Source of the DNA: Alphaproteobacteria bacterium
GTDB lineage: Bacteria > Pseudomonadota > Alphaproteobacteria > MPNO01
Assembly (NCBI GenBank): GCA_963667285.1
Contig: OY763326.1
Location: forward strand, 879,068 to 943,067
Direction: 5' to 3'
Length of the DNA: 64,000 bases
Under the pieces are notes generated by a model, which was not told where the DNA came from, searched no databases, and was given only the letters and a program-made list of their open reading frames with translations. Both the position numbers and the translations under genes were made by a program. Position 1 is the stretch's first letter; each line of letters opens with the position of its first letter. Of the stretch, positions 1-57,421 are shown piece by piece.

Positions 1-846
1 GGGCGCTACCGGGCGCTGTGCGAGCACTACGGCATGGAGGCTACCCGCAACAACCGCGGCGTGGCGCATGAGAACGGCTCGATCGAGGGGCCGCACGGCC
101 ACCTCAAGCGCCGCATCGCGGATGCCCTGGCGCTGCGCGGCTCGTCCGACTTCGAGGATCTCGACGCCTATCGGCGCTTTGTCGCCGACGTGGTCGGCCG
201 GGCCAACGCGCACCGTTCCAAGGCGATCGAGGCCGAGGGCGCGGTGCTGCAGGACCTGCCGGTCGGGCGGACCGTCGATTACCAGCCGATCAGCGTCAAT
301 ATCACCTCGTCGTCCGGCTTCACCCTGCGCCGCGTGTTCTACACCGTGCCCTCGCGCCTGATCGGGCACCGGCTCGGTGCGCGCGTCTACGACGACCGGA
401 TCGACCTCTTCCTCTCAGGCAGCCATCTGCTCACCCTGCCGCGCGGCCGCGCCGGCGCCAGCGGTCCGGGCGTCCACGTCGTCAACTACCGCCACGTCAT
501 CCATTCGCTGAAGAAGAAGCCGATGGCGCTCCTGAACCTGGTCTATCGCGACGAGCTGTTCCCGCGCGAGGCCTACCGGCGCTGCTTCGAGAAGGCCCTG
601 GAGCGGCTCACCGAACGCGAGGCCTGCCGGCTCGCCGTCGCCCTCCTGGCGCTCGCCCATGAGGAGAACTGCGAAGCCGAGCTGGCCGCCGAGATCGACC
701 GCGCGCTCAAGGCCGGCCGTCTCCCCGACCCCGGCGAGCTCAAGGCGCGCTTCGCGCCGCGGCGCGGCAAGATGCCCAGCGTCGACGTCACCAGGCCGCC
801 CCTCGTCGGCTATGGCGCATTGCTGAGCGCGGGAGAAGCGGCATGA
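1..846 (+). CDS. istA: IS21-family transposase IstA, C-terminal part (5' end lies outside the window)
   Basis: Frame is open from base 1. It ends at 846 and overlaps by 4 bp the start of a classic IstB gene. The gene order and ATGA overlap are typical of IS21 istA-istB. Confidence 0.75.
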   Translation, partial: GRYRALCEHYGMEATRNNRGVAHENGSIEGPHGHLKRRIADALALRGSSDFEDLDAYRRFVADVVGRANAHRSKAIEAEGAVLQDLPVGRTVDYQPISVNITSSSGFTLRRVFYTVPSRLIGHRLGARVYDDRIDLFLSGSHLLTLPRGRAGASGPGVHVVNYRHVIHSLKKKPMALLNLVYRDELFPREAYRRCFEKALERLTEREACRLAVALLALAHEENCEAELAAEIDRALKAGRLPDPGELKARFAPRRGKMPSVDVTRPPLVGYGALLSAGEAA

Positions 847-1682
847 CCGACAACCAGGACAAGATTGCGACCGACCCCAACAAGGTCGACGCCATGAAGC
901 TCTCCCTGATGCTCACCGAGCTCCGCCTGCCGACGATCGGCCAACTCTGGCAGAGCTTCGCCAAGCGGGCCGACAAGGAGGGATGGACCGCGGCCCGCTT
1001 CCTCGCAGCCCTGACCGAGCACGAGCTCGCCGAACGCGATCGGCGGCGGATCGAACGCCACCTCAGGGAGGCCAAGCTGCTGCCTGGCAAAACCCTCGAC
1101 TCCTTCGACTTCAACGTCGTGCCGATGATCTCCAGGGCCCAGGTCAACGCGCTGGCCGCCGGCGACGCGTGGCTCGACCAGGGCGCCAACTGCCTGATCT
1201 TCGGACCGCCAGGGGCCGGCAAGAGCCATCTCGCCTCCGCCATCGGCCTCGCCCTGGTCGAGAACGGATACCGCGTGCTGTTCACCAAAACCACCGATCT
1301 CGTGCAGCGCATGCAGGTCGCGCGCCGCGAGCTCGCCCTGGAAGCCCTGCTGGCCCGGCTCGACCGCTTCAACCTCCTGATCCTCGACGACCTCGCCTAT
1401 GTGCGGAAGGACCAGGCCGAGACCGGCGTGCTCTTCGAACTCATCTCGGCACGCTACGAGCGGCGATCCCTGCTGATCACCGCAAACCAGCCCTTCGGTG
1501 AGTGGAACAAGGTGTTCCCGGACGAAACAACCGCGGTGGCCGCCGTCGACCGCCTGGTCCACCACGCCACCATCCTCGAGATGAACGTCGAGAGCTATCG
1601 CCGCCGCGCCGCCCTCGACAGAGGCAAGCGAAAGGCCGGCCGGCCGGCAAGCTACGCCACCGGGAAAAACACCGGGGACTGA
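843..1682 (+). CDS. istB: IS21-family helper ATPase IstB
   Basis: Walker A GPPGAGKSHLA and Walker B LLILDDL. The C-terminal stretch ERRSLLITANQPFGEWNKVFPD...DRLVHHA is diagnostic of IstB. Confidence 0.9.
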   Translation: MTDNQDKIATDPNKVDAMKLSLMLTELRLPTIGQLWQSFAKRADKEGWTAARFLAALTEHELAERDRRRIERHLREAKLLPGKTLDSFDFNVVPMISRAQVNALAAGDAWLDQGANCLIFGPPGAGKSHLASAIGLALVENGYRVLFTKTTDLVQRMQVARRELALEALLARLDRFNLLILDDLAYVRKDQAETGVLFELISARYERRSLLITANQPFGEWNKVFPDETTAVAAVDRLVHHATILEMNVESYRRRAALDRGKRKAGRPASYATGKNTGD

Positions 1683-4831: not shown

Positions 4832-6103
4832 ATGGAGATCGTGATGGTGGGCATGCCCGTCGTCCTGCTCTTCCTGGGCTTTCCCATCTTCATCGTCCTG
4901 CTTGCAACCTCGGCCGTCGTCCTCCTGTTCTTCGCCAGCGTGCCGCCCATGGCGGCGCACCAGGTCATGTTCGGAAGTCTCGACAAGTTCGCGCTTCTGG
5001 CCGTCCCGTTTTTCATATTCACGGGCGAGCTGATGGCGCGGGGCGGCGTCTCCCGGCGGCTCATAGCCTGGGTCACCTCGATCGTCGGCGGCATCCGGGG
5101 CAGCCTGCCGATGACGGCGCTCGGCACGGCGACCATCTTCGGCGCCATCTCGGGAACGACCACGGCCACCGTCGCCGCCATCGGGGCGACCATCTATCAA
5201 CCGCTTCGCGACGCCGGCTATTCGGAGAAGTTCGCGTCCGGCATGCTCACCTCGGCGGGCGCCATCTCCAATATCATCCCGCCCTCCATCGCGATGATCC
5301 TCTACGGCATCGCGTCCGACGTATCCGTCATCCAGTTGTTCGCGGCCGGCATCGTCCCGGGGCTGCTCATGGCCGGCATGTTCGCCGCCTACATCTACTG
5401 GGTGGCCCGCAAGGAGGGCGTGCACGAAAGCGACCGGTTCAGCTGGCGGGGATTCGTCCTGGCGACCTGGCAGGGCGCCTGGGCGCTGGGCGCCCCGGTG
5501 ATCATCCTCGGCGGTATCTACAGCGGCGTCTTCTCGCCCACCGAGGCGGCGGGCGTCGCCGGGGTCTACGCCCTGGTCGTCACGCTTCTCATCTATCGGG
5601 AGGTGACGCTCCGCGAAGTGTTCGAGATCGCGTCCCGCTCGATGTACCTGACCGCCCAGATCTTCATCATCGTGGCGGTCGCGGGTGTCTATTCCTGGTT
5701 GCTGACCATCAGCGGCGGCGCGGCAGCCGCCACCGCGTTCATCGGCGATCTCGATATGCCGCCCTGGGCGGTGCTGTTGGTGATCAACATCTTCCTGCTG
5801 CTCGTGGGGACGGTTCTCGACACCGCGTCGGCGATTCTGGTCTTGACCCCGCTGCTTGCCGTCATCGCCAAGACCCTCGGGGTCGATCTGGTCCATTTCG
5901 GCATCATCGTCGTGGTCAATCTCACCATCGGCACCTTTACGCCGCCTTTCGGGCTCAACATTTTCGTCGGCCAAGCTGTGTTCAAGGTGCCGCTGGCCAA
6001 GCTCTATCCCGGACTCATGCCGTTCATCGTGCTCGCCATCGCGGCGCTGATGGTGATTACCTACGTGCCGTCGCTGTCGCTTTGGATCTTGAAGTTCATC
6101 TGA
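4832..6103 (+). CDS. dctM: TRAP transporter large permease (DctM family)
   Basis: 423-aa polytopic membrane protein with DctM-type motifs (GIYSGVFSPTEAAGV, TPPFGLNIFV). Confidence 0.9.
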   Translation: MEIVMVGMPVVLLFLGFPIFIVLLATSAVVLLFFASVPPMAAHQVMFGSLDKFALLAVPFFIFTGELMARGGVSRRLIAWVTSIVGGIRGSLPMTALGTATIFGAISGTTTATVAAIGATIYQPLRDAGYSEKFASGMLTSAGAISNIIPPSIAMILYGIASDVSVIQLFAAGIVPGLLMAGMFAAYIYWVARKEGVHESDRFSWRGFVLATWQGAWALGAPVIILGGIYSGVFSPTEAAGVAGVYALVVTLLIYREVTLREVFEIASRSMYLTAQIFIIVAVAGVYSWLLTISGGAAAATAFIGDLDMPPWAVLLVINIFLLLVGTVLDTASAILVLTPLLAVIAKTLGVDLVHFGIIVVVNLTIGTFTPPFGLNIFVGQAVFKVPLAKLYPGLMPFIVLAIAALMVITYVPSLSLWILKFI

Positions 6104-6430: not shown

Positions 6431-7579
6431 CTATCGGCACAGGGCGTTTCCGGTTTTCTGTACGGATTGGCGGCGCGGTTCCTTTTCCGTCAGCGTTTCG
6501 AGAAAGGCGACGAGATCGGCCCGTTGGCGCGCGCTCAGGTCCAGGCGGCGCAGAATCCGTTCGCCCGCGGCGTGCAGCCGTTCCTCGTCGATCGTCGAAT
6601 AGTGGCGGGCGACGTCGGCGAGCGTCTCGTGGCTGCCGGCATGCATGTAGGGCGCGGTGAGCGCCGCGTTGCGCAGGCCCGGCACCCGGAACTCGCCGAA
6701 ATTGCTCTGGCGCAGGCGGACATAGCGGGTCTTGGCGGCGGTGGAGCGCCGCGCATCGTCGTTGAAGCGGCCCAGCAGGGTGTAGGGGCTCCGGCGCAGC
6801 TTGCGGATGCCGCCGTGCCGGCCGGGATCGACCCGACCGGGCTCGACGAAATGCGGCACGCCGGCATCGGCGAACTCGCCGTTGGTGAAGGCCGGGCCGA
6901 AATGGCAGAAAGCGCAGTTGCCCCGGCCGACGAACAGGCGCAGGCCGCGCTTGGCGGCGGCGGGATAGCGGGCCCGGCCGGCCGCATCGCCGCGCGCGAG
7001 CGCGTCGCGGAAATCGTCGAACGGCGCGCGGCCGGTGACCCGGGTTTCCAGGAACGCCGCCAGCGCTTTGCCGAGATCGACGAATATCCGCGCGTCGTCC
7101 GCGCCGGGCGCCGCGCCGAAGGCGCGCCGGTATCCGCAGGAAAGCCGCCGGTCGGAGCGGACCAGCCGCGCCGCCCCGCCGGTGCCGACACCCATTTCGC
7201 GCGCATCGAGCAGGGGCCGCAGGTTTTGCGCCCACAGCGAGTCCTGCGCGCCGTCCCAGCCGAACCAGCGGTTGAACCCGAGGTTGAACAGGCCGGGCGC
7301 GTTGCGGTCGACGATCCGCTGCCCGCGGCTGCGCGGCAGGCCGTCGGTCCAGGCCCGGTCCGGCCTGTGGCAGGTCGCGCAGGAGACCGCGCCCGAGGTC
7401 GACAGGCGCGGTTCGAAAAACAGCGCCCGGCCGAAGGCGATGGCGGCGGGCTTGCCGGAAACCCGGTTGCTCGGATCGGGCAGCAAAGCCGGCGGCCACG
7501 GCCCGTGGCGCAGGATCCGGCGCTCTTCCTCGGCCGTGAAGTCGAGCGCCGGCGCCGGCGCGGCGACGCCGGAAAGCAT
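6431..7579 (-). CDS. Di-heme cytochrome c peroxidase / MauG-family protein
   Basis: Two CxxCH heme-binding motifs (CATCH, CAFCH). Size about 380 aa and architecture are typical of bacterial CCP/MauG. N-terminal signal-like segment. The start was chosen at an in-frame ATG; the ORF extends further upstream. Confidence 0.8.
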   Translation of the reverse strand: MLSGVAAPAPALDFTAEEERRILRHGPWPPALLPDPSNRVSGKPAAIAFGRALFFEPRLSTSGAVSCATCHRPDRAWTDGLPRSRGQRIVDRNAPGLFNLGFNRWFGWDGAQDSLWAQNLRPLLDAREMGVGTGGAARLVRSDRRLSCGYRRAFGAAPGADDARIFVDLGKALAAFLETRVTGRAPFDDFRDALARGDAAGRARYPAAAKRGLRLFVGRGNCAFCHFGPAFTNGEFADAGVPHFVEPGRVDPGRHGGIRKLRRSPYTLLGRFNDDARRSTAAKTRYVRLRQSNFGEFRVPGLRNAALTAPYMHAGSHETLADVARHYSTIDEERLHAAGERILRRLDLSARQRADLVAFLETLTEKEPRRQSVQKTGNALCR

Positions 7580-7641
7580 GCAGATTGCGATCGCAAGCTC
7601 CGGCAGCCGGGCGGCGACGGAGGCGCCTGGGCGCCGGGGCG

Positions 7642-8052
7642 TCACTCCGGCACCGTCTCGGCGGTCAGCTTGTCGCGGCCCGCCGCGCCGCGGACATCCA
7701 GAATCAGCTGCCAGCGCCCCGGCATGTGGAACATCAGGCCCTCGGCCTTTCCGGACGGGCCGTCCAGGGTCACCGCGGGCCGGTAGTTCATGCCGTGCCT
7801 GTGGTCCGGCATCCAGCCGCGCACCCCGACCCGGCCGACCGGCGGCCCGCAGAGATGGAAACGGATGGAGAAATGCGCGCCGACCGGGATTGGGGCGGGT
7901 TCCGATCGCCACCATGCGGTCCACGTCTCGCCGGCGATGCTCGCGCCGCCGGTCCAGCCCTCCGGACGGGGGCAGGCCGCCGCCTGGCCGGCCGCGAGCA
8001 CGAGCGCAAGCGCGGCCGCCAGCACCGGTCCGCCGAGGCGCCACCGGGCCAT
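7642..8052 (-). CDS. Small secreted His/Met/Trp-rich protein (possible metal, e.g. copper, chaperone)
   Basis: 136 aa. Signal peptide MARWRLGGPVLAAALALVLAAGQAAA. Mature part with WTAWW, HRHGM and MFHMPG motifs. Sandwiched between the Tat-amidohydrolase and the di-heme CCP. Only the 3' third of the 486-aa track ORF is plausible. Confidence 0.5.
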   Translation of the reverse strand: MARWRLGGPVLAAALALVLAAGQAAACPRPEGWTGGASIAGETWTAWWRSEPAPIPVGAHFSIRFHLCGPPVGRVGVRGWMPDHRHGMNYRPAVTLDGPSGKAEGLMFHMPGRWQLILDVRGAAGRDKLTAETVPE

Positions 8053-8057
8053 CGCGC

Positions 8058-8897
8058 CTAGCGCAGCTGCGCCAGATGCGGCCGGATCATCGCCTCGCCG
8101 TTGCGCCAGGCGATCTTTTCGGCGAGGCCGCGCGGCAGGTCGGTCAGCCATTGCCGGGTCCAGTCGGCGTGCTCGGCGACATAGTGCCAGCGTTCCGGCG
8201 TGAAGGTGTCGGTGCCGACCATGACGCGGTCGGGGAAGGCGGCGAACAGGCCGCGCCAGTCGTCGTCGACCCGGCCGCCATGGGCGTGTTCGCTGCGGAA
8301 GGCCAAATCGGTCCACAGATTCGCGTGCTTCCCGAGCATCGGGCCGACGATGTCCGGATCGACGAAGCCGGCATGGGCCCAGAGCACCCGCGCTTCCGGC
8401 CATTGGGCGAAGATGTCGTCGACCGCGCCGGCGTCCGAATGGGCGTGCAGGAGAAGATTGTGCCGCCGCGCGAGCTCGATCATGCGCCGCGGCACCGCCT
8501 TGTCGGTCTGCGCGGCGTAGAGGTGGAACTCGCCGACCGCGACCCACCTGAAACGCATCAGACGGTCCTCGAGAAAGTCGACCACCGACGGATCGTCGAC
8601 CCAGCTGTTGATCTCGCCGCGCCGGCGGTAGGGGCGCAGGCTGGGCAGGACAAGGCCCGGCGCCGCGGCGTGGAGCGCCCTTGTGCCGGCGTCGCCCGAG
8701 CTCGACACCAGCGCCCGCTTCAGCCCCGCCTTCCGCAGAATGGCGACGGCTTCGCTCGCGGAAAGGCGCTCTGCGGCGTCGTGGCTGAAATGGATATGGG
8801 CGTCGAAGATCGGCATCGGCGCGCCGGCGGCGCGGGCCGCCCCGGGCAGCAGCGCCGCGGCGGTCGAGGTCGCGAGAAAGCGACGGCGCGAAATCAT
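8058..8897 (-). CDS. Tat-exported amidohydrolase-2 family (TIM-barrel metal-dependent hydrolase)
   Basis: Twin-arginine signal MISRRRFLATSTAAALLPGAARAAG. IFDAHIHFSHD metal-binding start typical of the amidohydrolase_2 / ACMSD-like fold. Confidence 0.7.
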   Translation of the reverse strand: MISRRRFLATSTAAALLPGAARAAGAPMPIFDAHIHFSHDAAERLSASEAVAILRKAGLKRALVSSSGDAGTRALHAAAPGLVLPSLRPYRRRGEINSWVDDPSVVDFLEDRLMRFRWVAVGEFHLYAAQTDKAVPRRMIELARRHNLLLHAHSDAGAVDDIFAQWPEARVLWAHAGFVDPDIVGPMLGKHANLWTDLAFRSEHAHGGRVDDDWRGLFAAFPDRVMVGTDTFTPERWHYVAEHADWTRQWLTDLPRGLAEKIAWRNGEAMIRPHLAQLR

Positions 8898-9196: not shown

Positions 9197-10642
9197 ATGG
9201 CCTTCGACGACCTCAGGGACTATCTCGCGGTGCTCGAGCAGCGCGGGCTGTTGCGCCGGGTGCGCGAGACGGTCGATCCGGAATGGGAGATCGGCTGTCT
9301 CGTCAAATGGGCGTTCCAGGGCCTGCCCGAGGACGAACGCTTCGGCCTGTTCTTCGAGCACGTCGCGGGCAGCGACATCCCGGCCGTGACCGGCGCGCTC
9401 GGCGCCTCGACCGAGGCCTATGCCACGGCGCTCGGGGTCGAGCCCGACGAGATCAACGCCAAATGGGAGCGCGCGCTGCGCAACCCGGTGCCGCCGGCCC
9501 GCGTCGACGAGGCGCCGTGCCAGGAGGTCGTGCACGAGGGCGGCGCGGTCGATCTGTCCCTGCTGCCGATCCCGGTCTGGACGCCGGGCAAGGACGCCGG
9601 GCGCTACATCACCACGATCGTCGCCACGAGCGACGCCGAGACCGGGGTCCAGAACCACGGCGTCTACCGCACCCTCGTTGCCGGCCGCGACCGGCTGGTC
9701 TGCAACCTCTCGCCGGGACGGCAGGGGCGGCTCTGCTGCGAGAGCCATCACGCGCTCGGCCGACCGGCGCCGATCGCCTTCGTCATCGGCGCCGAGCCCG
9801 CGGTCTATCTCGCGGCGGTCACCAACTTTCCCATCGGCGTCGACGAGGCGACGCTCGCCGGCGGCCTCAAGGAGGCGCCGGTCGAGACGGTGCGCGCGCG
9901 GACCGTCGACCTCGACGTGCCGGCCCGGGCCGAGATCGTGATCGAGGGGCTGGTCTATCCGGGCGAGACGGCGAAGGAGGGGCCGTTCGGCGAGTTCGCC
10001 GGCTATATGGGGCCGGTGTCCGACCGGCCGGTCGTGCGGGTCACCGCGATCACCCACCGCCGGGACCCGATCTTTTACGGCATCGCGAGCCAGATGCCGC
10101 CGAGCGAGAGCACGCTGATGCAGAGCCTCACCAACGCCGGCGCGCTACGCAAGGTGCTGCGCCACGACCTCGGCGAGCGCGGCGTGGAGGACGTCCATAT
10201 CGACCTCACCTTCGGCGGGCTGCTGGCGCATGCGATCGTCGCGATGCGCCCGCGCGTCGCGGGCGATGCGCAGCGGATCGGGCGGATCGTCGCCGCCATC
10301 GCGCCGGTCAAGCGGGTCACCGTGGTCGACCACAATGTCGACATCCGCGATCCGCTGCATCTCGACTGGGCGATGAACGCCCATTTCGACCCGGCGCGCG
10401 ATACCGTCCTGATCGATAACGTATTCGTGCCGATGTATATGGACCCGTCGGTCCGGGTGCGCGGCGGCAACACCGATCCCGGCAGCAAGATCGTCGTCGA
10501 CGCGACCCGCAGCATCGACGCGGGCGAGCTGTCGATCCCCTCGCGCCCGCTGATGGAGAAGGCGCTCGGAAGCTGGCGCAAGGCCGGGCTTCCGGAATTC
10601 GAGATCCCGAAACGGCTGGCCTTCCGTCTCGACGACGCGTGA
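9197..10642 (+). CDS. UbiD-family (prFMN-dependent) decarboxylase
   Basis: N-terminus MAFDDLRDYLAVLEQRGLLRRV is classic for UbiD. Full length 481 aa. No UbiX-like partner in the window. Confidence 0.85.
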   Translation: MAFDDLRDYLAVLEQRGLLRRVRETVDPEWEIGCLVKWAFQGLPEDERFGLFFEHVAGSDIPAVTGALGASTEAYATALGVEPDEINAKWERALRNPVPPARVDEAPCQEVVHEGGAVDLSLLPIPVWTPGKDAGRYITTIVATSDAETGVQNHGVYRTLVAGRDRLVCNLSPGRQGRLCCESHHALGRPAPIAFVIGAEPAVYLAAVTNFPIGVDEATLAGGLKEAPVETVRARTVDLDVPARAEIVIEGLVYPGETAKEGPFGEFAGYMGPVSDRPVVRVTAITHRRDPIFYGIASQMPPSESTLMQSLTNAGALRKVLRHDLGERGVEDVHIDLTFGGLLAHAIVAMRPRVAGDAQRIGRIVAAIAPVKRVTVVDHNVDIRDPLHLDWAMNAHFDPARDTVLIDNVFVPMYMDPSVRVRGGNTDPGSKIVVDATRSIDAGELSIPSRPLMEKALGSWRKAGLPEFEIPKRLAFRLDDA

Positions 10643-10709: not shown

Positions 10710-12029
10710 TCAGCCGCCGAAGAGCAGGGTCGGCAGGTAGAGCGCGGCAGGCGGGAACAACGCCACGACCGCCAGCACGATGAGCTGGCAGACCACGAAG
10801 GGCACCACCCCGCGGAACATCTCGCCGTAAGTGATTTCCGGCGGCGCAATCGCCCTCAGATAGTAGATGGAAGGGGCCACCGGCGGCGTGAGGTAGGACG
10901 TCTGGATGACGATGCAGACCATGATCCCGAACCATATCGGGTCGATGCCCACGCTCCTGATCAGGGGCGTGAAGATCGGCATGCAGATCAGCACGATCGA
11001 GACCCAGTCGAGGATGAAGCCCAGCACGAAGAACACCGCGAGCATCAGGATCGTCAGCTCGACGGGGCCCGGCTTGAAGGTATCGAGAAAGACGCGGATC
11101 AGGTCGTTGCCGCCATTGACCATGAAGATCGCGGAGAACATCACGCCGCCCAGCACGGTGAACATGACCATCACGTTCACCCGAATGGCGCGTTCGACGA
11201 CCTGCATGGCGACGTCCCAAGACATCCGCCCGTAGGCGACGATCAGCGCGACCGCACCGAACGCCCCGACGGCTGCGGCTTCGGTGGGCGAGGCGATGCC
11301 GGCAAGAATGGATCCGAGGACGGCGACGATCAGGATGATCGCCGGGACCAGCGCGACCACGGTAATGCGCAGCTTTTCGATAGTCGGGACGCGCATCTCT
11401 TCGGCCTCGACCGCCGGGCCATCCTCGGGCCTGAGATGGCAGCGCAGCGCGATGTAGACCATGAACAGAAAGGTCATCAGCAGGCCGGGGATCACGACGC
11501 CGGCGAACAGGTCGCCGATCGATTCCTCCACCACAGACCCGTAGACCACGACCACGACGGTCGGCGGGATGATGGTGCCGAGCGAACCGCCCGCGCAAAT
11601 CGTCCCCGAGATCAGATCGTGCTTGTAGCGCTGCTTGATCATCGGCGGGATGGCCATCATGCCGACAACCGTCTCGACCGCTCCGACGACGCCGGAGCAG
11701 GCGGCGAAAATGCTGCACATGGAAATCGACGTCAGGGCCAGCCCGCCGCGGAGCCTGCCGATCCACAGCTGGATCGCGTGGAACAGCCTGTCGGCGATGC
11801 CCGAGCGCTCCAGCGCGCTGCCCATGAAGACGAACAGGGGCAGTGCCGTCAGCACATAGTTCGACGACACGTCCTTCAGACGGCTGAACATCTGCGGGCC
11901 GAGCGTGTCGCCGAAAAACCAGAACCCGAACGCGAAGGAGAGCCCGATCATGCTGAACGCGACGGGTATGCCCATGAACACGAGAAGGAAGAGCGCGGGG
12001 AACATCCAGATTGCGGGAATGTCCAGCAT
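10710..12029 (-). CDS. dctM: TRAP transporter large permease (DctM family)
   Basis: 439-aa polytopic membrane protein with DctM motifs. Downstream of dctQ and dctP on the same strand. Confidence 0.9.
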   Translation of the reverse strand: MLDIPAIWMFPALFLLVFMGIPVAFSMIGLSFAFGFWFFGDTLGPQMFSRLKDVSSNYVLTALPLFVFMGSALERSGIADRLFHAIQLWIGRLRGGLALTSISMCSIFAACSGVVGAVETVVGMMAIPPMIKQRYKHDLISGTICAGGSLGTIIPPTVVVVVYGSVVEESIGDLFAGVVIPGLLMTFLFMVYIALRCHLRPEDGPAVEAEEMRVPTIEKLRITVVALVPAIILIVAVLGSILAGIASPTEAAAVGAFGAVALIVAYGRMSWDVAMQVVERAIRVNVMVMFTVLGGVMFSAIFMVNGGNDLIRVFLDTFKPGPVELTILMLAVFFVLGFILDWVSIVLICMPIFTPLIRSVGIDPIWFGIMVCIVIQTSYLTPPVAPSIYYLRAIAPPEITYGEMFRGVVPFVVCQLIVLAVVALFPPAALYLPTLLFGG

Positions 12030-42821: not shown

Positions 42822-44123
42822 TTATCCCATCGTATCGGGCAGGAACAGAACGATGGATGGGAACGCGACCAGTAGCAGAATTCGCAGGACGTCGGTGACG
42901 ATGAATGGCGCCACACCGCGGTAGATGGTCGACAGCCTGACGTCCCTGGCGACACCGCGGATCACGAACACGTTGAGACCGAATGGCGGCGTGATCAAGC
43001 CCAGCTCCACCGTCATGACCACCACCACGCCGAACCAGATGGGGTCGAAGCCGAGATCGACGATCGCCGGGAATATGATCGGCACGGTCAGGATGATCAT
43101 TGCCAGCGAATCCATCAGGCAGCCGAGTATCAGGTAGAACAACAACAACAGCAGCAGGATGCCGTAAGGTCCGATCGGCAGCGCAAGCAGCAGGTCGGTC
43201 AGTTTCTGCGGCGTCTGGGTAATGGCAAGAAAGACGCCGAACAGCAGGGCCCCGATCAGGATGGTGAATACCGCCCCGGTGGTGCGGACGCTCTCGATCA
43301 GACAGTCGAGCGTTTGCCGCAGGGTCAGGCTGCGCCGAATGACGGCGATCAGGAAAGCGCCGGCCGCGCCCATGCCCGCGGCCTCGGTCGGCGTGAACAC
43401 GCCGCCGTAAATCCCGCCGATCACGAAGAAGAACACCAGCGCGACCGCCCACACATTGCGCAGCGACGCGATCCGTTCGCGCCACGACGCCCGGACCCCG
43501 GCCGGCACCGCATCGGGGTTGAACCAGGCAATGATCTGCACTGTGGTCATGTACATCGCGACCGCCAGCAGGCCCGGAATGAAGGCGGCGATGAACAGGC
43601 GACCGATATCCTGTTGGGTGATGATGCCGTACACCGCCAGCACCACCGACGGCGGAATCAGAATGCCGAGCGTGCCGCCCGCGGCGATAACGCCGGTCGA
43701 AATGCTGCTGCTATAGCCGTAGTCGCGCATTTCCGGCAGGGCGACCTTGGCCATCGTCGCTGAGGTCGCGACCGAGGAGCCGCAGATCGCCGCGAAACCG
43801 GAGCAGGCCGCGAGCGTCGCCAGCGACAAGCCGCCGCGGCGGTGGCCGAGCCAGGCGTTGCCGGCGCGGAACAGCTCGCGGCTCATACCGGACGCGCTGG
43901 CGAACGCGCCCATGAGGATGAACAGCGGGATCAGCCCGAACGCGAAGTCGGTGGCGTTGCGGATCGGCGACAGCGCCACCAGGCGCAGCGCCGGGTCGAT
44001 GCCGCTCAGGCTGGCGAAGCCGCCGATGCCGACGATCGCCATGGCGATACCGACGGGAACGCGCAGCAACATCAGCACGAGCAGGACGACGAAGCCGAGC
44101 CCTGCGATGAGGTCGTTGTCCAC
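42822..44123 (-). CDS. dctM: TRAP transporter large permease (DctM family)
   Basis: DctM motifs (GGIYGGVFTPTEAAGMG, TPPFGLNVFV). Start inferred at a GTG near 44123. The upstream part of the track ORF is an artefact. Confidence 0.85.
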   Translation of the reverse strand: MDNDLIAGLGFVVLLVLMLLRVPVGIAMAIVGIGGFASLSGIDPALRLVALSPIRNATDFAFGLIPLFILMGAFASASGMSRELFRAGNAWLGHRRGGLSLATLAACSGFAAICGSSVATSATMAKVALPEMRDYGYSSSISTGVIAAGGTLGILIPPSVVLAVYGIITQQDIGRLFIAAFIPGLLAVAMYMTTVQIIAWFNPDAVPAGVRASWRERIASLRNVWAVALVFFFVIGGIYGGVFTPTEAAGMGAAGAFLIAVIRRSLTLRQTLDCLIESVRTTGAVFTILIGALLFGVFLAITQTPQKLTDLLLALPIGPYGILLLLLLFYLILGCLMDSLAMIILTVPIIFPAIVDLGFDPIWFGVVVVMTVELGLITPPFGLNVFVIRGVARDVRLSTIYRGVAPFIVTDVLRILLLVAFPSIVLFLPDTMG

Positions 44124-56104: not shown

Positions 56105-57421
56105 TCACCGGGTCATCAGGCCCGGCAGGGACAGGGAAATCTCCGGGAAGGCCATGATCAGGGCCATGGCGATGACGTCGCAGATCAGGAAGGGAACCGC
56201 CGCCCGGATGATGTGGCCCATGGTCGTGTCGGGCGGCGACACGCCCTTCATGACGTAGAGCAGGATGCCGTAAGGCGGGGTGGTCTGCGCCATCTCGATG
56301 TTGATCAGGAACAGGACGAGGAACCAGATCGGGTCGTAGCCCAGCTGCTTCACCACGGGCAGGAAGACCGGCAGGGTGATCAACATCAGGGGCACGCCCG
56401 AGATGAAGCCGCCGAGGATCAGGATCACGAACTGCATCATGACGATGAGCACCAGCGGCGCCACCGGGAGCCCGACGGCCCATTGCACGAGATACCGGTT
56501 CGCGCCGGTGAACGCGAGCACCTGGGAATAGGCCTGGGCGGCGGCGAGGATGATCAGCACCATCACCGAAATTCGCAGCGTGCTCTCGATCGCCTCGCGC
56601 GTGACCTTCCGGTTGAGCCCGCCATAGCAGGCGGCGAGGACGAATGAGCCGGCGGTGCCGAGCGCCGCCGCTTCGGTCGGCGTGGCGACGCCGAGAAAGA
56701 TCAGCCCGACGACGAGGAACACGATGAGCCCGAGCGGCAGGACGTATTTGACGGTGAGCGAAATCTTCAGCCCGAGCGGCACCCTCTCGATCGCGTAGCG
56801 GGGCGCGAGGTCGGGCTGCAGATAGCAGCGGACGATGATGTAGGAGGCATAGAGCACCGCCATCAGAATGCCCGGCAGGACGATCGCGATCAGCAGCTTG
56901 CCGACCGACACCTCGGCCAGCACCGCCAGGATCACGCCGAGCCCGCTCGGCGGGATCATGATCGCGAGCCCGCCGCTGCCGAGCAGCGGGCCGATGCTCA
57001 TGGGTTTCTTGTAGCCCCGCGATTCGAGCTCGGGCGCGAGCGTCGCGCCGAGCATCGCGGTGGTCCCGATGCTGGCGCCGCTGAGCGAGGCGAGCACCGT
57101 CCCCGACGCCACGGCGAGCAGCGACAGGCGCCCGGGCAGGTTTCCGAGCCATTTGTCGAGCGCGTCGATCATGCGCGCCGCCACACCCGCCCGGAACATC
57201 ACCTCGCCCATCAGCACAAACAGCGTTATCGGCAGCAGGACGAAGACCGTCAGGCTGCCATAGGCGCTGTTGACCATCTGTTCGAGACCGGCCTCGCCGC
57301 CCATCAGCAGGAACATGCCCACGATGTTGACCGCGAAGAACGCGAAGACCACCGGAACCCCGACGAACAGCAGGGTGAAGAGCGCCCCCAGGATCAGCGC
57401 GATGGACCAGTACCATTCCAC
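56105..57421 (-). CDS. dctM: TRAP transporter large permease (DctM family)
   Basis: 438 aa. DctM motifs (TPTEAAALGTAG, TPPYGILLYV). Confidence 0.9.
   Translation of the reverse strand: MEWYWSIALILGALFTLLFVGVPVVFAFFAVNIVGMFLLMGGEAGLEQMVNSAYGSLTVFVLLPITLFVLMGEVMFRAGVAARMIDALDKWLGNLPGRLSLLAVASGTVLASLSGASIGTTAMLGATLAPELESRGYKKPMSIGPLLGSGGLAIMIPPSGLGVILAVLAEVSVGKLLIAIVLPGILMAVLYASYIIVRCYLQPDLAPRYAIERVPLGLKISLTVKYVLPLGLIVFLVVGLIFLGVATPTEAAALGTAGSFVLAACYGGLNRKVTREAIESTLRISVMVLIILAAAQAYSQVLAFTGANRYLVQWAVGLPVAPLVLIVMMQFVILILGGFISGVPLMLITLPVFLPVVKQLGYDPIWFLVLFLINIEMAQTTPPYGILLYVMKGVSPPDTTMGHIIRAAVPFLICDVIAMALIMAFPEISLSLPGLMTR

What the first reader, a model, noticed from the sequence alone, without database searches (positions are those of the whole stretch)
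6431..8897. Periplasmic three-gene unit: Tat-exported amidohydrolase-2, small His/Met/Trp-rich secreted protein, di-heme CCP/MauG-like peroxidase
The three genes are co-directional and tightly spaced (5-bp and 62-bp gaps). A Tat signal on an amidohydrolase-2 (ACMSD-like) enzyme is unusual, because that family is typically cytoplasmic. The small protein has a cleavable signal peptide and HRHGM ... MFHMPG motifs suggestive of copper or other metal binding. MauG-like di-heme enzymes often modify a partner protein post-translationally, for example tryptophan-derived cofactors and kynurenine formation in MbnP. The small Trp-rich protein (WTAWW) could be such a substrate.
Basis: partly seen in the sequence, partly recalled or inferred. 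Interest (0 to 1): 0.55.

Follow-up and report, generated by a model that had tools for sequence, protein, structure and literature searches.

The report
Conserved periplasmic MauG-like copper-protein operon
Three tightly linked genes for exported proteins (a metal-dependent hydrolase-fold enzyme, a small copper-chaperone-like protein and a MauG-type two-haem protein-oxidising enzyme) form a cassette conserved across many proteobacteria, and its function has not been described, so it is a good lead for a new protein-maturation or copper-handling system.

Summary
Three co-directional minus-strand genes encode an exported amidohydrolase-fold protein (8897-8058), a 136-aa secreted protein (8052-7642) and a di-haem CCP_MauG protein. 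The third gene most likely starts at GTG 7645, overlapping the small gene's stop by 4 bp, not after a 62-bp gap.

The trio keeps its order in about 77 of 80 genome loci from Alpha-, Beta- and Gammaproteobacteria. It also does so in 63 of 64 (small gene) and 51 of 53 (CCP gene) metagenome loci anchored on the hydrolase. Flanking genes are not conserved.

The di-haem enzyme has an invariant Tyr349 aligned with MauG Tyr294, where canonical peroxidases have Met. Its best solved relative is MbnH. It is therefore a MauG/MbnH-type enzyme, not an H2O2 scavenger.

The hydrolase carries a binuclear TatD/PHP-like ligand set. Its Tat motif is specific to the alphaproteobacterial clade.

Which partner the haem enzyme modifies is unresolved. 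I favour the hydrolase as the client, with the small protein as copper chaperone.

The parts
8058..8897 (-). Exported amidohydrolase-fold protein (279 aa). Conserved putative metal ligands are H34/H36 (with H39), E123 (with H125), H151/H153, H175 and D230. It also has an Arg-rich beta3 loop (R88, Y90, R91, R93) and many invariant Trp.
8829..8897 (-). Signal peptide of the amidohydrolase with the twin-arginine motif SRRRFL and an ARA|A cleavage-like site.
   Evidence: Read from the sequence. Pfam TAT_signal E 0.03, below cutoff. The motif is in 38 of 39 alphaproteobacterial orthologues and 14 of 120 betaproteobacterial-type ones.
7642..8052 (-). Small secreted CrdA/YtkA(CtaK)-like beta-sandwich protein (136 aa). 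It is a putative copper-binding protein or chaperone.
7975..8052 (-). Sec-type signal peptide of the small protein (residues 1-26, ...AGQAAA|C). The invariant Cys27 lies at or near the mature N-terminus.
   Evidence: Read from the sequence. AF2 predicts helix 8-20 followed by coil. C27 and C68 are invariant in 59 diverse homologues. A C27-C68 disulfide is inferred, not shown.
7786..7812 (-). Metal-binding motif 1: M81-P-D-H84-R-H86-G-M88-N89, in the loop after beta-strand 72-81.
   Evidence: Invariant or nearly invariant across the family. It aligns with the Met-rich MPEMPGM Cu(I) motif of CrdA (PMC9182242).
7711..7740 (-). Metal-binding motif 2: G105-L-M-F-H109-M110-P-G112-R-W114.
   Evidence: G105, H109, M110, G112 and W114 are invariant. 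It aligns with CrdA 'sMnGtW', in which Met99 belongs to the predicted Met cluster (PMC9182242).
7642..7645 (-). GTGA overlap: the GTG start of the di-haem gene overlaps the TGA stop of the small gene, which suggests translational coupling.
   Evidence: for the sequence. Orthologue N-termini. Independently called genes overlap by 4 bp in L081 and L082.
6431..7645 (-). MauG/MbnH-type di-haem enzyme (404 aa from GTG 7645). It has a signal peptide, and the mature N-terminus is LDFTAEEERRILRHGPWPP.
   Evidence: Pfam CCP_MauG E 5e-37. NCBIfam MauG 158 bits and MbnH 147 bits, both below cutoffs. Best PDB match is 6e1c, a 'Di-heme enzyme' I recognise as MbnH, at E 7e-30.
7367..7381 (-). Haem-binding motif 1, C89-A-T-C92-H93 (peroxide-binding haem).
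   Evidence: Read from the sequence. C89, C92 and H93 are invariant in 68 orthologues. Distal-pocket residues Q140 (63 of 68), P144 and E150 (68 of 68) are conserved.
6902..6916 (-). Haem-binding motif 2, C244-A-F-C247-H248 (six-coordinate haem).
   Evidence: Read from the sequence. Invariant in orthologues.
6599..6601 (-). Tyr349 codon. Predicted axial ligand of the second haem and equivalent of MauG Tyr294.
   Evidence: The phmmer alignment to 3l4m (chain residues 260-296) puts Y294 opposite this Tyr. Canonical peroxidases 3o5c, 2c1u and 1iqc have Met at this position. H348-Y349-S350 is invariant in 68 of 68 orthologues.

Best explanation
This is a self-contained periplasmic operon built like 'enzyme - copper chaperone - MauG-type maturase'.

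Shown:
- All three products carry export signals.
- The genes are contiguous or overlapping, and they travel together across proteobacterial classes while the flanks change.
- The third protein has the His/Tyr haem-ligand signature of MauG, MbnH and BthA and an intact peroxide-binding pocket.
- The second protein is a CrdA/YtkA(CtaK)-family beta-sandwich whose invariant residues are a His3/Met3 cluster at the positions of CrdA's predicted Cu(I) site.
- The first protein is an amidohydrolase-superfamily barrel with a complete binuclear-metal ligand set plus extra invariant His, Arg and Trp.

Inferred mechanism:
1. H2O2 (or O2 plus reductant) converts the di-haem enzyme to a bis-Fe(IV) state.
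2. That state oxidises, at long range, an aromatic residue or the metal centre of a co-encoded partner protein.
3. The small protein binds periplasmic copper through its His/Met loops and hands it on.

My committed assignment is that the amidohydrolase-fold protein is the client matured by the other two. This follows mtoX-SCO1/senC-mauG (same gene order) and phosA-bthA. Its catalytic activity remains unknown. The Arg-rich loop suggests an anionic, possibly phospho- or carboxy-ester or amide, substrate.
For: - Synteny. Amidohydrolase-small-CCP order in about 77 of 80 genome loci from Alpha- and Betaproteobacteria and in Reinekea thalattae, a gammaproteobacterium. In 80 hydrolase-anchored metagenome loci the small gene follows in 63 of 64 and the CCP in 51 of 53. 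Independently called genes agree. No flanking family is widely shared.
- MauG type. Tyr349 aligns with MauG Y294 and is invariant in 68 of 68. His/Tyr ligation is the feature that separates bis-Fe(IV) enzymes from Met/His peroxidases (PMC6405878).
- Copper protein. CrdA is the top hit by three methods. The family belongs to YtkA. CtaK/YtkA has conserved His/Met and acts in CuA assembly (PMC9145763, PMC13344008).
- Precedents for an enzyme client. mtoX-SCO1/senC-mauG operons have the chaperone and MauG sometimes fused (PMC5739008). BthA is always next to an exported purple acid phosphatase (PMC6405878).
- The hydrolase is the most conserved of the three between clades (55-67% versus 50-62% for the CCP and 35-52% for the small protein).
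- The small protein has no family-specific aromatic residue beyond W114, which CrdA shares.
Against: - There are no experimental data for any of the three families.
- No amidohydrolase-fold enzyme is known to use copper or a Trp-derived cofactor.
- The hydrolase keeps a full hydrolytic ligand set, so it needs no obvious maturation.
- The CCP's closest solved relative is MbnH, whose substrate is a copper-binding protein, not an enzyme (PMC11951088).
- Small plus CCP occur without an adjacent hydrolase in 3 of 80 loci.
- Tat export in the alphaproteobacterial clade suggests the hydrolase can be metallated in the cytoplasm.
- I could not inspect model coordinates or run a complex prediction, so no interface or target residue is identified.
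Confidence: 0.38

Rival explanations
1. MbnH/MbnP-like logic. The small copper protein is itself the substrate. The di-haem enzyme oxidises a residue at its metal site, most plausibly the invariant W114 next to H109/M110, for example to N-formylkynurenine. The periplasmic amidohydrolase finishes the job, for example by deformylation to kynurenine. The result is a mature high-affinity copper-binding protein.
For: - The CCP is closest to MbnH, especially in the C-terminal haem domain (50 bits versus 28 for the next hit).
- Three known kynurenine-copper proteins (MbnP, MopE*, CorA) are listed together in PMC11951088. MbnH is shown there to form the kynurenine of MbnP. That CorA and MopE are also encoded next to MauG-like genes is my recollection.
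- Their Cu sites are His/Met/Kyn or His2/Kyn (PMC11951088), which resembles the His/Met/Trp invariants here.
- The small gene sits between the two enzymes and is translationally coupled to the CCP.
- Oxidative ring opening followed by formamide hydrolysis is chemically coherent for an oxidase plus an amidohydrolase.
- Small plus CCP persist without the hydrolase in 3 loci.
Against: - The small protein is not homologous to MbnP (no NCBIfam hit; not among the top structural matches).
- W114 is also conserved in CrdA, and the papers read here report no MauG partner or modification for CrdA or CtaK (PMC9182242, PMC9145763).
- MbnP was obtained in its kynurenine form by co-expression with MbnH (PMC11951088). 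As I recall no hydrolase was involved.
- WTAWW is not conserved.
- Hydrolase plus small occur without a CCP in 2 of 53 loci.
Confidence: 0.3
2. A periplasmic small-molecule pathway. The hydrolase and the di-haem enzyme act in sequence on a diffusible substrate, for example an aromatic, lactone or ester compound. The small protein serves as a redox or metal cofactor donor.
For: - The window neighbourhood is catabolic and transport-rich: TRAP transporters, a UbiD decarboxylase, and other hydrolases.
Against: - The flanking genes are not conserved with the cassette in other genomes.
- As far as I know, His/Tyr di-haem enzymes characterised so far act on proteins or have no known small-molecule substrate (PMC6405878).
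- The small protein's invariant Cys residues (C27, C68) lie far from the His/Met loops. This does not fit the Cys-His-Met C-terminal loop of type-1 electron-transfer copper sites as I recall it.
Confidence: 0.12
3. Peroxide and copper stress defence. The di-haem protein works as a peroxidase. It draws electrons from Cu(I) held by the small protein or from another donor, removing both Fenton reagents. The hydrolase has an unrelated function.
For: - The peroxide-binding pocket (Q140, P144, E150, five-coordinate-type loop without a distal His) is intact.
- BthA retains peroxidase activity with artificial donors (PMC6405878).
- CrdA is a copper-resistance determinant (PMC9182242).
- A CutA1-domain ORF lies upstream in 7 betaproteobacterial loci.
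Against: - Tyr replaces the Met ligand, and with a Tyr-ligated haem BthA could not reach the semi-reduced state that canonical peroxidases form (PMC6405878).
- This reading does not explain the near-obligate linkage to the hydrolase.
- No copper- or peroxide-responsive regulator is conserved nearby.
Confidence: 0.1

Closest known systems
MbnH-MbnP (methanobactin-operon di-haem enzyme and its kynurenine-containing copper protein)
   Same: MbnH (PDB 6e1c, as I recognise the entry) is the best solved relative of the CCP. Both have Tyr at the MauG-Y294 position. Both are encoded next to a secreted copper-binding protein whose site uses His and Met with a Trp-derived or Trp residue nearby (PMC11951088).
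   Different: The CCP scores 147 bits against the MbnH model, whose cutoff is 363. The small protein is unrelated to MbnP in sequence and is not among its structural neighbours. It has no WxW motif. A third gene, the amidohydrolase, is near-obligate here.
mtoX - SCO1/senC - mauG operon (methanethiol oxidase)
   Same: The gene order is the same: periplasmic enzyme, copper chaperone, MauG-like di-haem protein. The chaperone and MauG are tightly coupled or fused (PMC5739008).
   Different: The enzyme there is an SBP56 beta-propeller, not a TIM barrel. The chaperone is a thioredoxin-fold SCO protein, not a CrdA/YtkA beta-sandwich. Copper use by the enzyme here is unproven.
BthA-PhosA (Burkholderia)
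   Same: A His/Tyr di-haem enzyme of unknown substrate is conserved next to an exported binuclear metallohydrolase (PMC6405878).
   Different: BthA is a distant relative (E 4e-14) and has Ser in place of the inter-haem Trp. The partner is a purple acid phosphatase. No copper protein is involved.
MauG (TTQ biosynthesis in methylamine dehydrogenase)
   Same: Two CxxCH motifs, the Tyr axial-ligand position, the inter-haem Trp (W130 in the window), and the distal Gln/Pro/Glu residues.
   Different: 158 bits against a cutoff of 444 for TIGR03791. None of the other gene families detected in the cassette loci is a mau gene.
CrdA (H. pylori), YtkA/CtaK and the YcnJ C-terminal domain (B. subtilis)
   Same: The fold and motif positions match: MP..GM and M.G.W. 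The family reaches Pfam YtkA. All are extracytoplasmic copper handlers (PMC9182242, PMC9145763, PMC13344008).
   Different: This family adds three invariant His and two invariant Cys. It is the only one found coupled to a MauG-like gene and an amidohydrolase. The window copy itself is below the YtkA threshold (14.8 versus 25.9 bits).
Canonical bacterial di-haem cytochrome c peroxidases (Pa, Ne, So CcpA)
   Same: Overall fold family (CCP_MauG), the calcium/Trp bridge region and the peroxide pocket. Overall phmmer scores are similar to the MbnH score.
   Different: The Met ligand of the electron-transfer haem is replaced by an invariant Tyr. There is no distal His loop. The gene has dedicated conserved neighbours.

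Membership tests
CCP_MauG superfamily (PF03150) | Pfam domain above the gathering score and two CxxCH haem motifs | tested here: met
   128.4 bits against a cutoff of 25.6. CATCH at residues 89-93 and CAFCH at 244-248 are invariant in 68 orthologues.
MauG/MbnH/BthA-type (bis-Fe(IV)-forming) di-haem enzymes | Tyr, not Met, as the axial ligand of the six-coordinate haem | tested here: met
   Tyr349 aligns with MauG Tyr294. Canonical CCPs have Met at the aligned position. Invariant in 68 of 68 orthologues. This is a sequence-level inference, and ligation itself was not observed.
MauG/MbnH/BthA-type (bis-Fe(IV)-forming) di-haem enzymes | Formation of a bis-Fe(IV) state (near-infrared band) with H2O2 | not testable with these tools
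   Needs purified protein with UV-vis/NIR and Mossbauer spectroscopy.
MauG equivalog (TIGR03791) | Score above the curated cutoff, and a mau gene context | tested here: not met
   158.1 bits against a cutoff of 443.85. No mau-type gene family appears among the neighbours that were examined.
MbnH family (TIGR04039) | Score above the curated cutoff, and an adjacent MbnP | tested here: not met
   147.3 bits against a cutoff of 362.85. The small protein has no NCBIfam match of any kind at E<=0.1, so no MbnP-model hit.
YtkA-like domain (PF13115; CtaK, YcnJ C-terminus) | Pfam score above the gathering threshold | tested here: inconclusive
   The window protein scores 14.8 bits against 25.9 (E 0.046). 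However, 44 of 59 family members match at E<=0.01 (best 4.6e-10), and some pass the cutoff (P0147 at 32.0 bits, P0253 at 30.2 bits). The window copy is therefore a divergent member of a YtkA-related subfamily.
CrdA/CopC-like periplasmic copper-binding beta-sandwich | Fold match and metal-ligand motif at homologous positions | tested here: met
CrdA/CopC-like periplasmic copper-binding beta-sandwich | Actual Cu(I)/Cu(II) binding | not testable with these tools
   Needs metal titration or ICP-MS on purified protein.
Amidohydrolase superfamily (Amidohydro_2, PF04909) | Pfam above cutoff, (beta/alpha)8 barrel, HxH at strand 1 and Asp at strand 8 | tested here: met
Tat substrates | Conserved twin-arginine S/T-R-R-x-F-L motif in the leader | tested here: inconclusive
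   SRRRFL is present in the window and in 38 of 39 alphaproteobacterial orthologues, but in only 14 of 120 betaproteobacterial-type orthologues. Pfam TAT_signal is below cutoff.

The most novel reading that the evidence does not exclude
The amidohydrolase-fold protein is a new kind of periplasmic enzyme. Its active form would depend on copper delivered by the CrdA/YtkA-like protein and on a protein-derived (Trp/Tyr-based) cofactor or oxidised metal centre installed by the MauG-type enzyme. That would be the first cupro- or quino-enzyme built on a TIM-barrel amidohydrolase scaffold.
Probability: 0.2. Interest if true: 0.85.

Novelty: new variant of a known kind. Interest (0 to 1): 0.6.

Why it matters
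To my knowledge only two MauG-type enzymes have known substrates: MauG itself and MbnH. BthA and the methanethiol-oxidase MauG are still orphans.

This cassette offers a third, very widespread system. At least 6465 hydrolase homologues and 1884 clusters of the small protein were detected. It occurs in metagenome-assembled genomes whose names point to sponge hosts, in environmental metagenome contigs of many samples, and in Alpha-, Beta- and Gammaproteobacteria.

Both candidate substrates are encoded next to the oxidase, and at least one cultured carrier exists (Reinekea thalattae). That makes the question 'what do orphan His/Tyr di-haem enzymes modify?' directly testable.

It also extends the CrdA/CtaK copper-chaperone family to a His-rich proteobacterial branch, and it defines an amidohydrolase family with no solved or characterised relative.

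Tried and rejected
- Canonical H2O2-scavenging CCP. Rejected because of the invariant Tyr at the Met-ligand position and the conserved dedicated neighbours.
- Small ORF as an artefact. Rejected.
- Type-1 cupredoxin electron carrier. The invariant Cys positions do not fit.
- Rosetta-stone fusions. The long family members P0123 and P0132 look like frameshift or assembly artefacts, and P0253 like a chimera.
- A conserved fourth gene or regulator. All-against-all clustering of ORFs in 80 loci found none beyond the trio. TctC, NIPSNAP, CutA1 and DUF6152 neighbours are clade-limited.
- A conserved upstream operator. A block of about 75 nt is shared by many alphaproteobacterial loci but not by the window. 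The promoter/terminator scan was uninformative.
- Plasmid-borne annotated copies. None found.
It was solved by a profile search.
- Sequence-profile search of the hydrolase against the PDB found nothing.
- Literature searches for the trio ('MauG-like' with amidohydrolase, and TruffO) returned nothing useful.
- No paper on the 2025 CrdA crystal structure was in the library.
Full report
**Anatomy**

The region holds three minus-strand genes.

Gene 1 runs 8897-8058 and encodes 279 aa. It begins MISRRRFLATSTAAALLPGAARA|A, followed directly by PIFDAHIHF, the first strand of a TIM barrel.

Gene 2 runs 8052-7642 and encodes 136 aa. It starts 5 bp after the stop of gene 1 and begins with a Sec-type leader ending AGQAAA|C.

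Gene 3 ends at 6431. Three observations argue for an earlier start:
- That Met is I/T/L/F in orthologues.
- Orthologues are called at 408 aa with a conserved MTPRRSGASVAARL... leader.
- tblastn alignments to alphaproteobacterial loci begin at residue 1 of the long form, exactly where the small gene ends.

I therefore place the start at GTG 7645, overlapping the small gene's TGA (GTGA). Independently called genes in other contigs show the same 4-bp overlap.

GC3 is 0.88-0.90 in all three frames. The exact 136-aa and 279-aa products are in the public protein collection.

**Conservation**

The small protein has 493 word-indexed homologues. An exhaustive profile search found 1884 50%-identity clusters at E<=1e-3 and 510 at E<=1e-10.

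Eighty genome loci were fetched with the small protein. They fall into an alphaproteobacterial group and a betaproteobacterial group:
- The alphaproteobacterial group comprises Rhodospirillales, Defluviicoccus and Thalassobaculaceae genomes assembled from metagenomes, some named after sponges, at 68-90% identity.
- The betaproteobacterial group comprises Burkholderiales and Nitrosomonadales, at 35-52% identity.

The order hydrolase-small-CCP holds in about 77 of these 80 loci. The window's own neighbours (UbiD, TRAP transporters) do not travel with it.

ORF clustering found no further widely shared gene.

Eighty metagenome loci were anchored instead on the hydrolase. The small gene lies directly downstream in 63 of 64 loci with enough sequence, and the CCP in 51 of 53.

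The exceptions are few:
- Three loci have small plus CCP but no hydrolase.
- Two have hydrolase plus small but no CCP.
- One has the small gene deleted.

A cultured gammaproteobacterium, Reinekea thalattae, carries the trio. Its small protein is annotated 'FixH family protein'.

**The di-haem enzyme**

Pfam CCP_MauG gives E 5e-37. The NCBIfam MauG and MbnH models score 158 and 147 bits, both far below their cutoffs.

The best solved relative is 6e1c, deposited as 'Di-heme enzyme', which I recognise as MbnH (E 7e-30). Canonical peroxidases follow closely, and MauG and BthA lie further away.

Searching with the C-terminal half alone, MbnH is clearly best. The alignment to MauG (3l4m, residues 260-296) places MauG Tyr294 opposite Tyr349 here. 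Three canonical peroxidases have their Met ligand at that position.

Residue conservation across 68 orthologues:

| Residue(s) | Role | Conserved |
|---|---|---|
| H348-Y349-S350 | Tyr ligand region | 68 of 68 |
| E150, P144 | distal pocket | 68 of 68 |
| Q140 | distal pocket | 63 of 68 |
| W130 | inter-haem Trp equivalent | 54 of 68 |

His/Tyr ligation is the feature that distinguishes bis-Fe(IV)-forming MauG and BthA from Met/His peroxidases (PMC6405878).

**The small protein**

Diverse homologues share very few residues:
- C27 and C68.
- F61.
- M81-P-x-H84-x-H86-G-M88-N.
- G105, then H109-M110-P-G112-x-W114.

WTAWW is confined to the alphaproteobacterial clade.

The AF2 model (pLDDT 91.5) is an eight-strand beta-sandwich with both motifs in loops.

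H. pylori CrdA is the top match by three methods:
- Foldseek, E 4e-5.
- Profile hmmsearch, E 8e-4.

In the hmmsearch alignment, CrdA's MPEMPGM and sMnGtW align to the two motifs. Those CrdA methionines form its predicted Cu(I) cluster (PMC9182242).

Forty-four of 59 family members match Pfam YtkA. YtkA is CtaK, which has conserved His/Met and supports CuA assembly (PMC9145763, PMC13344008).

CopC, PmoD, P19/FetP and FixH are weaker structural neighbours. MbnP and PCuAC do not appear.

**The hydrolase**

Pfam Amidohydro_2 is just above cutoff. No solved structure is detectable by sequence or by profile.

Mapped onto the predicted strands, the invariant residues give:
- HxH at strand 1 (H34, H36), plus H39.
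- E123 and H125 at strand 4.
- H151 and H153 at strand 5.
- H175 at strand 6.
- D230 at strand 8.

This is a binuclear TatD/PHP-like set with extra histidines. There is also an Arg-rich loop (R88, Y90, R91, R93) and many invariant Trp.

The twin-arginine leader is nearly universal in the alphaproteobacterial clade but rare in the betaproteobacterial type. Export is therefore the constant, not the route.

**Interpretation**

The literature offers two kinds of precedent.

In the first kind, a MauG-like enzyme acts on a neighbouring copper-binding protein. The cases are MbnH/MbnP, and by implication CorA and MopE (PMC11951088).

In the second kind, the MauG-like enzyme sits beside an exported enzyme:
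- MADH.
- mtoX-SCO1/senC-mauG, which has the same enzyme-chaperone-MauG order (PMC5739008).
- phosA-bthA, which pairs a binuclear metallohydrolase with a MauG-like enzyme (PMC6405878).

This cassette contains both kinds of candidate partner. I marginally favour the enzyme-client model (0.38) over the MbnP-like model (0.30), for three reasons:
- The small protein's relatives, as described in the papers read here, work as copper handlers with no reported modification.
- Its only invariant Trp is shared with CrdA.
- The gene order mirrors the methanethiol-oxidase operon.

Against this, the CCP's nearest relative is MbnH. An oxidase plus an amidohydrolase acting in turn on a Trp (ring opening, then deformylation) would also be chemically neat.

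Neither model could be tested further here.

**Verdict**

The unit is a real, widely distributed and apparently undescribed variant of MauG-type partner systems. The component identities rest on solid sequence and structure evidence. The mechanism is inferred.

Noticed in passing
window 34-1682 (+): An IS21-type element lies at the left edge of the window. An IstB-like ATPase gene (843-1682, Pfam IstB_IS21) is preceded by an ORF (34-846, possibly the tail of an istA-like gene cut by the window edge) that has no Pfam hit at E<=1e-5.
   Followed up: partly
window 4832-6103 (+), 10710-12029 (-), ~42828-43955 (-), ~56114-57385 (-): At least four TRAP-transporter DctM paralogues lie in one 64-kb window, with DctP and DctQ partners beside the first two.
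   Followed up: partly
window 9197-10642 (+): A UbiD-family decarboxylase is transcribed divergently from the cassette. It is not conserved next to the cassette in other genomes.
   Followed up: yes
L101:4795-5005: This metagenome copy of the cassette has most of the small gene deleted. Its signal peptide and first strands remain as a remnant in front of the CCP gene.
   Followed up: partly
L001-L044, about 75 nt upstream of the hydrolase start: A conserved upstream block (GGGCTTGCCTTGCAG...GGGAGTGACAGGATT...CAGCAGGAAGGAGCC) is shared by many alphaproteobacterial loci. It is absent from the window and from L009, which share a different leader. It could be a promoter or operator, or simply reflect recent common ancestry.
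   Followed up: partly
L050:4011-4958 and six other betaproteobacterial loci: A CutA1 (divalent-ion tolerance) domain ORF lies immediately upstream of the cassette in 7 betaproteobacterial loci. This is a weak extra hint of a metal link.
   Followed up: no
window 7579 vs 7645: The public gene call for this genome's CCP (382 aa, from ATG 7579) appears to be truncated at the N-terminus compared with its 408-aa cluster mates. As called, it would lack a signal peptide.
   Followed up: yes
PDB 8sm6 residues 269-284: A solved 'amidohydrolase family protein' contains GLmwHMdGdW, which resembles the small protein's GLxFHMPGrW motif. At E 2.7 this is most likely chance.
   Followed up: no
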